This document shows, one piece after another, positions 43,434 to 44,585 of a DNA stretch of 64,000 nucleotides. The stretch spans positions 370,212 through 434,211 of the forward strand of contig CBDAOU010000001.1 of NCBI GenBank assembly GCA_965198185.1. The letters run 5' to 3'. The translations under genes were made by a program, and so were the position numbers. This DNA is from Chloroflexota bacterium. Its GTDB lineage: Bacteria; Chloroflexota; UBA11872. Every line of letters starts with the position of its first letter. Position 1 is the stretch's first letter. The notes under the pieces were generated by a model. It worked only from the letters and a program-made list of their open reading frames with translations, had not been told where the DNA came from and did no database searches.

Positions 43434-43456
43434 GGGCGGGTCTGAGACCCGCCCCT
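43434..43456. repeat. GTAG-type REP palindrome interrupted by IS110
   Basis: GGGCGGGTCT-G-AGACCCGCCC-CT; the missing AC follows the IS at 44549-44550. Confidence 0.75.
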
Positions 43457-43625
43457 TGTATGTTGCGAGTCCCGCGGATTGTCCGCGGGGAAGCACCGGG
43501 CCGGGACAGACCGCAGGTCCCAAGAGACCGTCGGTACGTCCCGGCCCGCGCTGGTCCAGAGGCACCGTTGCCACGCGAGCCCGCATCCAAGGTTGGGCGG
43601 GAGGCCAGCGGCGGAGGGTACCGAA
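43457..43625 (+). ncRNA. Candidate IS110 bridge RNA
   Basis: 5' hairpin 43471-43489; lobe 1 closed by 43498-43507/43538-43547; lobe 2 closed by 43549-43556/43603-43610. Confidence 0.55.
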
Positions 43626-44529
43626 GTGTCCCAACCCCCGTATCTCGGCTGGACGTCGCCCGCGCATGGATGTTGCGTGCCACCCCACGCAGGACGCGTG
43701 GCGGATCGCCGCGCTGGTGCGCCGCGCGAGCCGCTGCAGCCCACCCGGATCGTGCTGGAAGCCAGTGGCGGCTACGAGCGGGCGGTCGACGCCGCGCTCA
43801 TCGCGGCCGGGCTGCCGGCGGTGGTGGTCAATCCGCGGCAGGTGCGCGACTTCGCCCGCAGCCGCAACATCTTGGCCAAAACCGACCGCCTCGACGCCTG
43901 GGTGCTGGCGCGATTCGGGCCGAGGTCCAGCCGCCGGTGCTCCGCGCCCAGATGCCGCCACCCTCGATCTGCACGCCCTGGTCACCCGGCGGCGCCAACT
44001 CCTGGCCATGCGCGTGGCCGAGCAGCAGCGCCGGCCCCAGACCCCACCGGCCCTCCGCGCCAACCTCGACGCCCACCTGGCCTGGCTGACCGACCACCTG
44101 GCCGACCTCGAGGCGCAGATCGCTGCCGCCATCCAGGCCGAGCCGCACCTGCGTGCCCGCGCCGCCTGGCTCCGCATCCCCGGCATCGGCGGTCGCCTGC
44201 CACACGCTGCTCGCCGAGCTGCCCGAGCTGGGCACCCTCAACCGCCACCAGATCGCCGCCCTCGTCGGCGTGGCCCCCTTCAACCGCGACAGCGGCAGGT
44301 GGCGCGGGCGCCGCTCGGTCTGGGGTGGGCGTGCCTCGGTCCGCGCCGCGCTGTATATGGCCGCCCTCGCCGCCAGTCGGGCCAACCCCAGCCTGCGCGC
44401 CTTCTATCAGCGCCTCCTCGCGGCCGGCAAGCCCAAGCTCGTGGCCCTCACCGCCTGCACGCGCAAGCTCCTCGTGCTCTGCAATGCCCTGTGCAAACAG
44501 CAGGCATGTGGGACCCGACCATGGGCTAA
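43626..44529 (+). pseudogene. IS110 transposase (bridge recombinase) with at least five frameshifts
   Basis: Fragments in changing frames: [61 protein letters not shown]. Confidence 0.9.
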
Positions 44530-44585
44530 CCCGACGCCAAACGCGGCTACCCCGCAGCCACCGCGCCTTCAGGTTCGACCGGACT

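What the first reader, a model, noticed from the sequence alone, without database searches (positions are those of the whole stretch)
43434..44550. IS110 inserted at the CT core of a GTAG-type REP, with a reconstructable empty site
Seen: left junction GGGCGGGTCTGAGACCCGCCC-CT|TGTAT and right junction AACGCGG-CT|AC. Removing the IS restores ...AGACCCGCCC-CT-AC, whose reverse complement is GTAG plus a near-perfect palindrome. Known: IS621 targets the CCTAC end of enterobacterial REPs through a CT core, and its left end also begins TGTAT. Inference: the same REP-end targeting operates here on a different REP sequence in a probably distant phylum.
Basis: partly seen in the sequence, partly recalled or inferred. 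Interest (0 to 1): 0.62.

Follow-up and report, generated by a model that had tools for sequence, protein, structure and literature searches.

The report
Dead IS621-like insertion in REP end
A worn-out copy of an RNA-guided jumping gene (IS110/IS621 type) sits at the CT of the CTAC end of a small palindromic repeat in a Chloroflexota genome, and intact sister copies carry guide-RNA loops that spell out this target, so it is a well-understood kind of element in a new host group.

Summary
Window 43457-44546 is an IS110-family element. A CT lies on each side (43455-56 and 44547-48). It is inserted between a 21-nt hairpin (43434-43454) and the AC that completes CTAC, the reverse complement of GTAG.

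The window copy is a fossil. It is about 90% identical to sister copies and differs by at least 18 indels, all deletions. These remove the target guides of its bridge RNA, shift the transposase frame at least 8 times and damage the right end.

The genome holds seven more copies, four with an intact 312-aa transposase. All lie at ...GCCC-CT|IS|CT-AC in hairpins of one REP superfamily. That superfamily has 138 hairpin-CTAC sites and two RAYT-like genes.

The intact left ends fold into a two-lobed bridge RNA. Its loops read UCCGCCCCU and GUAG for the target, and ACCGUUGC and UGCAAG for the donor. A second IS110 in the genome has a different target and matching different guides.

The donor (ACMGTTG-CT-TGTAT) is nearly that of IS621 (ACAGTAT-CT-TGTAT). 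Chloroflexota relatives with the same donor hit unrelated targets. REP-end targeting is therefore a lineage-specific guide programme.

Verdict: new member of a known kind, modest interest.

The parts
43164..43240 (-). tRNA-Val(GAC). This is context only. The intergenic spacer between it and the next gene holds the REP, the IS and a second hairpin repeat.
   Evidence: ARAGORN and Rfam tRNA at 67 bits. In same-genus genomes this spacer is about 10 nt (G011) or 150 nt (G005) and holds no IS.
43434..43454 (.). REP hairpin GGGCGGGTCTGAGACCCGCCC. Its 3' arm is the left target (LT) of the IS.
   Evidence: Read directly. About 30 copies of this subfamily exist in the genome. Across at least 8 subfamilies there are 138 hairpin-CTAC sites.
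43455..43456 (+). Left copy of the CT core dinucleotide.
   Evidence: CT precedes TGTATG in all 9 IS copies of the genome and in 12 relatives' loci.
43457..43625 (+). Left end with a decayed bridge-RNA gene. The 5' hairpin and the outer stems are kept. Deletions destroy the left target guide, the right-target-guide region and part of the donor-loop stem.
   Evidence: Alignment with intact copies. The indel list shows deletions of TCCGCCCC at 43514, 8 nt at 43533 and 10 nt at 43574.
43626..44529 (+). IS110-family transposase pseudogene. The start is GTG instead of ATG. At least 8 frame-breaking deletions are present, and the TAA stop is at 44527-29.
   Evidence: Fragments match Pfam PF01548 (E 2.4e-11) and PF02371 (E 5.9e-14). 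tblastn shows pieces in different frames. Indels are listed.
44530..44546 (+). Decayed right end (left donor). It reads ...CCCGACGCCAAACGCGG where intact copies read ...CCCTTGACGGCCAAACACCGTTG. The TTGACG -35-like box and 3 nt of the donor arm are lost.
44547..44550 (+). Right copy of the CT core, followed by AC. Together they form the CTAC (GTAG) end of the REP, now separated from its hairpin.
   Evidence: All copies read CT-AC except copy F, which reads CC-AC.
44584..44610 (.). Second hairpin, CTGGATTCCGGCG-CGCCGGAATGACGG. With the REP it forms a roughly 100-nt composite repeat that the IS interrupted.
   Evidence: The emptied site aligns colinearly with at least 8 uninterrupted paralogues.

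Best explanation
The element is a fossil copy of an IS621-like, bridge-RNA-guided IS110 element.

When active, the element is thought to excise as a circle in which right and left ends join at one CT. This would create the donor site ACACCGTTG-CT-TGTATG and probably a junction promoter (TTGACG, 18 nt, TATGTT).

The left end encodes a bridge RNA with two guide loops. The target loop carries UCCGCCCCU, which has the same sequence as the target top strand CCGCCC-CT and so pairs with the bottom strand. It also carries GUAG, which pairs with the top strand CT-AC. The donor loop carries ACCGUUGC and UGCAAG, which match the element's own ends.

The DEDD/Ser recombinase then exchanges strands at the CT. 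This places the element between a REP hairpin and the last two bases of its CTAC (GTAG) end.

Shown here: family membership, the ends, the cores, the target consensus, the empty sites, the guide-target and guide-donor matches and their covariation.

Inferred from IS621: the circle, the promoter and the strand-exchange chemistry.

The window copy has since lost its target guides, its reading frame and part of its right end. It can neither move nor direct movement.
For: Family. An intact sister protein matches PF01548 and PF02371. It matches NCBIfam NF033542, 'IS110 family RNA-guided transposase', at 192 bits against a cut-off of 140. It also matches the solved IS621 transposase (E 3.6e-39) and ISCro4 transposase (E 2.1e-39).

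Copies. BLAST finds 8 copies of this IS plus one 71%-identical relative, copy E. The ends and flanks are tabulated.

Target. The consensus is ..CGCCC-CT-AC, inside hairpins of five REP subfamilies. The same target is used by relatives in other Chloroflexota MAGs.

Guides. The bridge-RNA loops match target and donor. Copy E and L022 have the target TCACAC-CT-CTGT and carry guides AUCACACCU and ACAGAG. The right ends ACAGTTG and ACCGTTG co-vary with guides ACAGUUGC and ACCGUUGC.

Fold. 96.5% of cells are paired against 34-41% when the partners are slid, and 6 pairs have compensatory changes.

Right-target-guide extension. It matches the element's own flank in 7 of 17 elements against 1.8 expected (P = 4e-4).

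Empty sites.

Decay of the window copy.
Against: No direct evidence of activity was obtained. No Rfam family exists to confirm the bridge RNA independently.

Copies B and C sit in CCTGCCC-CT hairpins while their guide reads ACGGCCCCU, which gives one or two mismatches. Copy F has CC instead of CT at its right junction.

Some single-base frameshifts in copies B and G could be assembly errors.
Confidence: 0.9

Rival explanations
1. Target choice is gated by structure as well as sequence. On this view the recombinase needs the DNA hairpin 5' of the CT, as proposed for ISPpu10, and not only the roughly 10-nt guide match.
For: Every insertion of this lineage, in this genome and in relatives, lies 3' of a hairpin, even when the hairpin sequences differ. 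The ISPpu10 preprint reports such a dual-match requirement.
Against: The motif itself is almost confined to hairpins: 138 of 197 GCCCCTAC sites and most CCGCCCCTAC sites. Hairpin occupancy is therefore expected from sequence alone, and the test has no power. Copy E and many Chloroflexota relatives insert at sites with no hairpin.
Confidence: 0.25
2. The hairpin is part of the mobile element, as a terminal structure like those of IS200/IS605, and is not a pre-existing target.
For: The hairpin abuts the left end in every copy.
Against: More than 100 hairpins occur with no IS nearby. Different copies abut five different hairpin sequences. The AC that completes CTAC lies at the far end of the IS. 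Uninterrupted paralogues run colinearly across the insertion point.
Confidence: 0.02
3. The window copy is intact in the cell and its frameshifts are long-read assembly errors.
For: Several of the deletions are single bases within runs.
Against: The copy is only about 90% identical to every sister copy. It also carries deletions of 3 to 21 nt, 79 nt in all and none of them insertions. These include both target guides and part of the right end.
Confidence: 0.02

Closest known systems
IS621 (Escherichia coli; IS110 family, bridge RNA)
   Same: Both have a DEDD plus Tnp-domain recombinase (E 3.6e-39 to PDB 8wt6). Both have a CT core. The donors are nearly identical: ACAGTAT-CT-TGTAT in IS621 and ACMGTTG-CT-TGTAT here. 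In both, the bridge RNA lies in the left end upstream of tnp, with a 5' hairpin, a target loop and a donor loop. Both have a 7+2-nt left target and a 4-nt right target CT-AC, and both insert at the CTAC end of REPs.
   Different: The left target is CCCGCCC instead of ATCAGGC. The host is Chloroflexota, not Enterobacteria. The REP superfamily is different (GGGC...GCCC hairpins of 20-21 nt). The window copy itself is non-functional.
ISPpu9 / ISPpu10 (Pseudomonas putida KT2440; IS110 family)
   Same: These are multi-copy IS110 elements inserted at one fixed dinucleotide inside REPs. ISPpu10 has a CT at both ends (PMC12288879). A hairpin at the target has been proposed as a second specificity determinant.
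   Different: ISPpu9 uses an AG core as written in that paper and carries extra sRNA genes. No accessory sRNA module is seen here. A hairpin requirement is untested here.
IS1111-group elements IS4321/IS5075, and IS1383
   Same: These are IS110/IS1111-family elements that target the ends of other mobile elements (cited in PMC11208160). Copy E of this genome behaves similarly: it sits at a fixed site in another short repeat.
   Different: In the IS1111 group the guide RNA lies downstream of tnp (PMC12288879). Here it lies upstream, the IS110-group arrangement.

Membership tests
IS110 family (IS110 group, IS621-like) | [quoted passage not shown] | tested here: met
   In intact sister copy A, PF01548 scores E 3.9e-20, PF02371 scores E 2.9e-21 and NF033542 scores 192 bits against a cut-off of 140. 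Fragments of the window copy match both domains.
IS110 family (IS110 group, IS621-like) | No terminal inverted repeats, and a short core dinucleotide present at both junctions | tested here: met
   CT is at both junctions in 8 of 9 copies and CC is at one junction of copy F. The ends TGTATG... and ...CCGTTG are not inverted repeats.
IS110 family (IS110 group, IS621-like) | Bridge RNA upstream of tnp, with one loop complementary to the target and one to the donor | tested here: met
   This is met in the intact copies and in relatives, with covariation. It is lost by deletion in the window copy.
IS110 family (IS110 group, IS621-like) | Circular intermediate with a joined RE-LE donor site and a junction promoter | not testable with these tools
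A metagenome scan for the junction gave one ambiguous 35-nt site with no IS. Joining the ends in silico gives TTGACG, 18 nt, TATGTT. This is an inference.
REP / RAYT system | Short extragenic imperfect palindromes in many copies | tested here: met
   There are 197 GCCCCTAC sites against 64 expected from a first-order model. Of these, 138 lie in 20-21-nt hairpins of at least 8 subfamilies.
REP / RAYT system | Conserved GTAG tetranucleotide next to the hairpin | tested here: met
   CTAC or GTAG flanks the hairpins, and 18 hairpins have it on both sides. This agrees with the rule quoted by Quentin et al..
REP / RAYT system | Cognate Y1 (HUH) RAYT gene associated with the REPs | tested here: inconclusive
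   Two Y1 genes with HUH and Tyr motifs lie at C2:278341-278904 and C2:366914-367456, with REPs beside and inside them. NF047646 scores 64 bits, below its cut-off of 80. PF01797 scores 30.7 bits summed, against a cut-off of 23.

The most novel reading that the evidence does not exclude
REP-end parasitism has arisen independently in this Chloroflexota lineage and in proteobacterial IS621/ISPpu10. In each case the target loop would have been re-programmed onto the one feature all REP subfamilies of a genome share: the RAYT-recognised GTAG end plus the base of the stem. The DNA hairpin may act as a second, structural gate. The element would then be a specialised hyperparasite of the REP/RAYT system, and each insertion would split GTAG from its hairpin and inactivate the REP.
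Probability: 0.3. Interest if true: 0.45.

Novelty: new member of a known kind. Interest (0 to 1): 0.3.

Why it matters
The case shows, from natural sequence alone, the full bridge-RNA logic outside Proteobacteria. Two sister IS110 elements in one genome have different targets and correspondingly different guides. The donor site is nearly identical to that of IS621.

It gives a set of natural guide-target pairs, a GC-rich Chloroflexota orthologue with four intact copies for anyone mining bridge recombinases, and a worked example of how such elements decay.

It does not change what is known about the mechanism.

Tried and rejected
- Rfam. No bridge-RNA family matched; only the tRNA did.
- Circle junction in metagenomes. 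A scan for ACACMGTTGCTTGTATGTTGC found one contig with an isolated 35-nt junction-like site and no IS. This is not evidence of a circle.
- Orthologous empty site. The closest same-genus genomes have a much shorter spacer with neither REP nor IS. The empty site is therefore shown by paralogues, not orthologues.
- Hairpin-gating test. The motif is almost confined to hairpins, so the test has no power.
- Ancestral REP targeting in the IS621-like clade. This was rejected: Chloroflexota relatives at 49-76% identity keep the donor ACAGTTG-CT-TGTATG but have unrelated targets.
- L025, a gammaproteobacterial relative at 42% identity. Its right guide matches its flank, but its left guide could not be matched, so it was not used.
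- Choi et al. 2003 (PMC166490) is not held. The IS621 sequences were taken from two other papers.
- A tRNA-like left flank at L061 was not confirmed by ARAGORN.

Full report
**Observation**

- A 21-nt palindrome, GGGCGGGTCTGAGACCCGCCC, lies at 43434-43454.
- It is followed by CT (43455-56) and then TGTATGTTGCGAG.
- The far end reads ...CCAAACGCGG (to 44546), CT (44547-48), AC (44549-50).
- The palindrome is not a chance match: 0 are expected in shuffles.
- The body between the two CTs is 1090 bp.

**What the element is**

The window lies in a 3.25-Mb, 67% GC genome of two contigs. BLAST finds seven further copies of the same element, 88-98% identical to one another. It also finds one 71%-identical relative, copy E.

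Four copies (A, C, F, H) encode an intact 312-aa protein. That protein matches:
- PF01548 and PF02371;
- NCBIfam NF033542, 'IS110 family RNA-guided transposase', at 192 bits against a cut-off of 140;
- the solved IS621 and ISCro4 transposases, at E about 1e-39.

The window copy is about 90% identical to all the others. Against copy A it shows 18 indels, every one a deletion, 79 nt in total. These include:
- 8 nt covering the left target guide;
- 8 nt in the right-target-guide region;
- 10 nt of the donor-loop stem;
- at least 8 frame-breaking deletions in tnp;
- loss of the TTG of a TTGACG box;
- a right end that reads AAACGCGG instead of AAACACCGTTG.

Deletions of this size, together with 10% substitutions, cannot be assembly noise. 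The window copy is a fossil.

**Where the copies sit**

Every copy has ...GCCC-CT immediately before TGTATGTTGCAAG. Every copy has ...AAACACCGTTG-CT-AC at the other end, except copy F, which has CC-AC. The left flank is always the 3' arm of a hairpin, but the hairpins differ:
- GGGCGGGTCTGAGACCCGCCC (window copy and G);
- GGGCGGGTTTGAAACCCGCCC (A);
- GGGCAGGTTTSAAWCCTGCCC (B and C);
- GGCGGTTCGCGAACCGCC (F);
- GGGCGCCCACAAGGGACGCCC (H).

Two or three short left-end remnants also abut such hairpins.

Relatives at 65-90% protein identity, in other Chloroflexota MAGs, sit at the same motif in the same kinds of hairpin. This places the host in Chloroflexota.

**The target is a REP superfamily**

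GCCCCTAC occurs 197 times against 64 expected. Of these, 138 end a 20-21-nt hairpin. The hairpins fall into at least 8 subfamilies that share only the outer GGGC...GCCC and the CTAC, and 18 have GTAG on both sides.

The genome has two Y1/HUH genes of RAYT type, with REPs beside them. They score below the NCBIfam cut-off, so the RAYT link is likely but not formally met.

**Empty site**

Joining the window flanks gives a 29-mer that occurs identically and uninterrupted at C1:269640-269668. The emptied site aligns colinearly, across the insertion point, with at least 8 uninterrupted paralogues. These paralogues form a roughly 100-nt composite repeat: REP, CTAC, about 30 nt, then a second hairpin CTGGATTCCGG...CCGGAATGACGG.

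No orthologous empty site exists. In the two closest genomes the tRNA-Val-to-gene spacer is about 10 nt or 150 nt and lacks both the REP and the IS.

**Mechanism**

The roughly 230-nt left end of the intact copies folds into a 5' hairpin and two lobes. In the fold, 96.5% of cells are paired against 34-41% when the partners are slid, and 6 pairs have compensatory changes.

In the first lobe the loop strands read UCCGCCCCU and GUAG. UCCGCCCCU has the sequence of the target top strand CCGCCC-CT. GUAG is the complement of CT-AC. In the second lobe they read ACCGUUGC, which matches the right end ACCGTTG-C, and UGCAAG, which pairs with CT-TGTA with one G-T wobble.

This is the arrangement described for IS621. 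There the left guides have the sequence of the top strand and pair with the bottom strand, the right guides pair with the top strand, and the core is included in all four pairings (PMC11208160).

Three natural controls support it.
1. Copy E and its relative L022 carry AUCACACCU and ACAGAG. They sit at TCACAC-CT-CTGT, and three empty copies of that site exist in this genome.
2. Elements whose right end is ACAGTTG carry ACAGUUGC, and those with ACCGTTG carry ACCGUUGC.
3. The three bases 5' of GUAG vary between sister copies. They match the bases after CTAC at the element's own site in 7 of 17 elements, against 1.8 expected by permutation (P = 4e-4). This fits the known benefit of an extended right target guide.

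The circle, the junction promoter (TTGACG, 18 nt, TATGTT when the ends are joined) and the strand-exchange chemistry are inferred from IS621. They were not shown here.

**Comparison with known systems**

| Feature | IS621 | This lineage |
|---|---|---|
| Donor | ACAGTAT-CT-TGTAT | ACMGTTG-CT-TGTAT |
| Target | ATCAGGC-CT-AC, in E. coli REPs | CCCGCCC-CT-AC |
| Native right guide | 4 nt | 4 nt |

REP targeting by IS110 elements is long known: IS621, ISPpu9/10, and Tobes and Pareja 2006 as cited.

A sample of 301 Chloroflexota genomes found IS621-like elements in 40. Those at 49-76% identity keep ACAGTTG-CT-TGTATG but have unrelated left and right targets. REP-end targeting is therefore a guide programme of this lineage, not a trait of the clade. 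Its resemblance to IS621 in this respect is best read as convergence.

Whether the hairpin itself is required, as proposed for ISPpu10, cannot be decided. The motif hardly occurs outside hairpins.

**Verdict**

The element is a new member of a well-characterised kind, and the window copy is a dead one. Its interest is modest. Its value lies in the clean natural guide-target covariation and in four intact GC-rich orthologues elsewhere in the genome.

The most noteworthy thing met on the way is separate from this finding: REP hairpins are embedded in frame inside the RAYT genes of this bacterial family (see the items noticed in passing).

Noticed in passing
own genome C2:278341-278904(-) and C2:366914-367456(-); relatives L039-L046: Nine of the ten RAYT-like genes examined in this bacterial family carry 1-4 REP hairpins inside the ORF. 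Where the downstream bases were read (four genes), the hairpin plus CTAC lies on the coding strand and in frame. They lie between the HUH motif and the catalytic Tyr and encode peptides such as AGLKPAPT and ATTRVAPT. The embedded hairpin differs between paralogues and in several cases equals a genomic REP subfamily. L043 instead has repeated peptides of that kind without a detected hairpin. Quentin et al. 2018 do not appear to mention this. It may be a master copy, an autoregulatory site or a specificity-linked feature, and it deserves its own follow-up.
   Followed up: partly
own genome C1:44005-45192: A second IS110 element (copy E) has a 314-aa intact transposase, 67% identical to copy A. 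It has different target guides and sits at CAGCCGTGTCTCACAC-CT-CTGTGGTCAGT. Three empty copies of this site lie at C2:24261, C2:1284844 and C2:1741857. The site belongs to another short repeat that ends in CTAG, and a MITE-like end abuts it.
   Followed up: partly
bridge RNA of all copies (e.g. L001, about 100 nt into the left end): The three bases 5' of the GUAG right target guide are hypervariable between otherwise near-identical copies. They match the bases following CTAC at the element's own insertion site more often than permuted pairings do (7 of 17 against 1.8 expected, P = 4e-4).
   Followed up: yes
own genome C2:1867277-1867354, C1:630527-630539, C2:~278250-278290: Solo left-end remnants of the IS, 13 to about 80 nt long, abut REP hairpins. 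They are traces of older insertions that were largely deleted.
   Followed up: partly
window 43295-44707 compared with G011:C1 and G005:C1: The spacer between tRNA-Val and the next gene is about 10 nt in one same-genus genome and 150 nt in another. Here it is 1.4 kb, filled by the REP, the IS and hairpin repeats.
   Followed up: yes
L037:4485-4520 (metagenome contig Ga0209166_10000287): An isolated RE-CT-LE junction-like site of about 35 nt (TTCAACACAGTTG-CT-TGTATGTTGCCGG) has no IS around it. It lies next to plasmid-type relaxase genes. It could be an internally deleted element or a donor-like pseudo-site.
   Followed up: no
own genome C2:1676183-1676200 (copy F right junction): Copy F has CC-AC instead of CT-AC at its right junction although its transposase is intact. 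This could be a point mutation in the core or an imprecise resolution.
   Followed up: no
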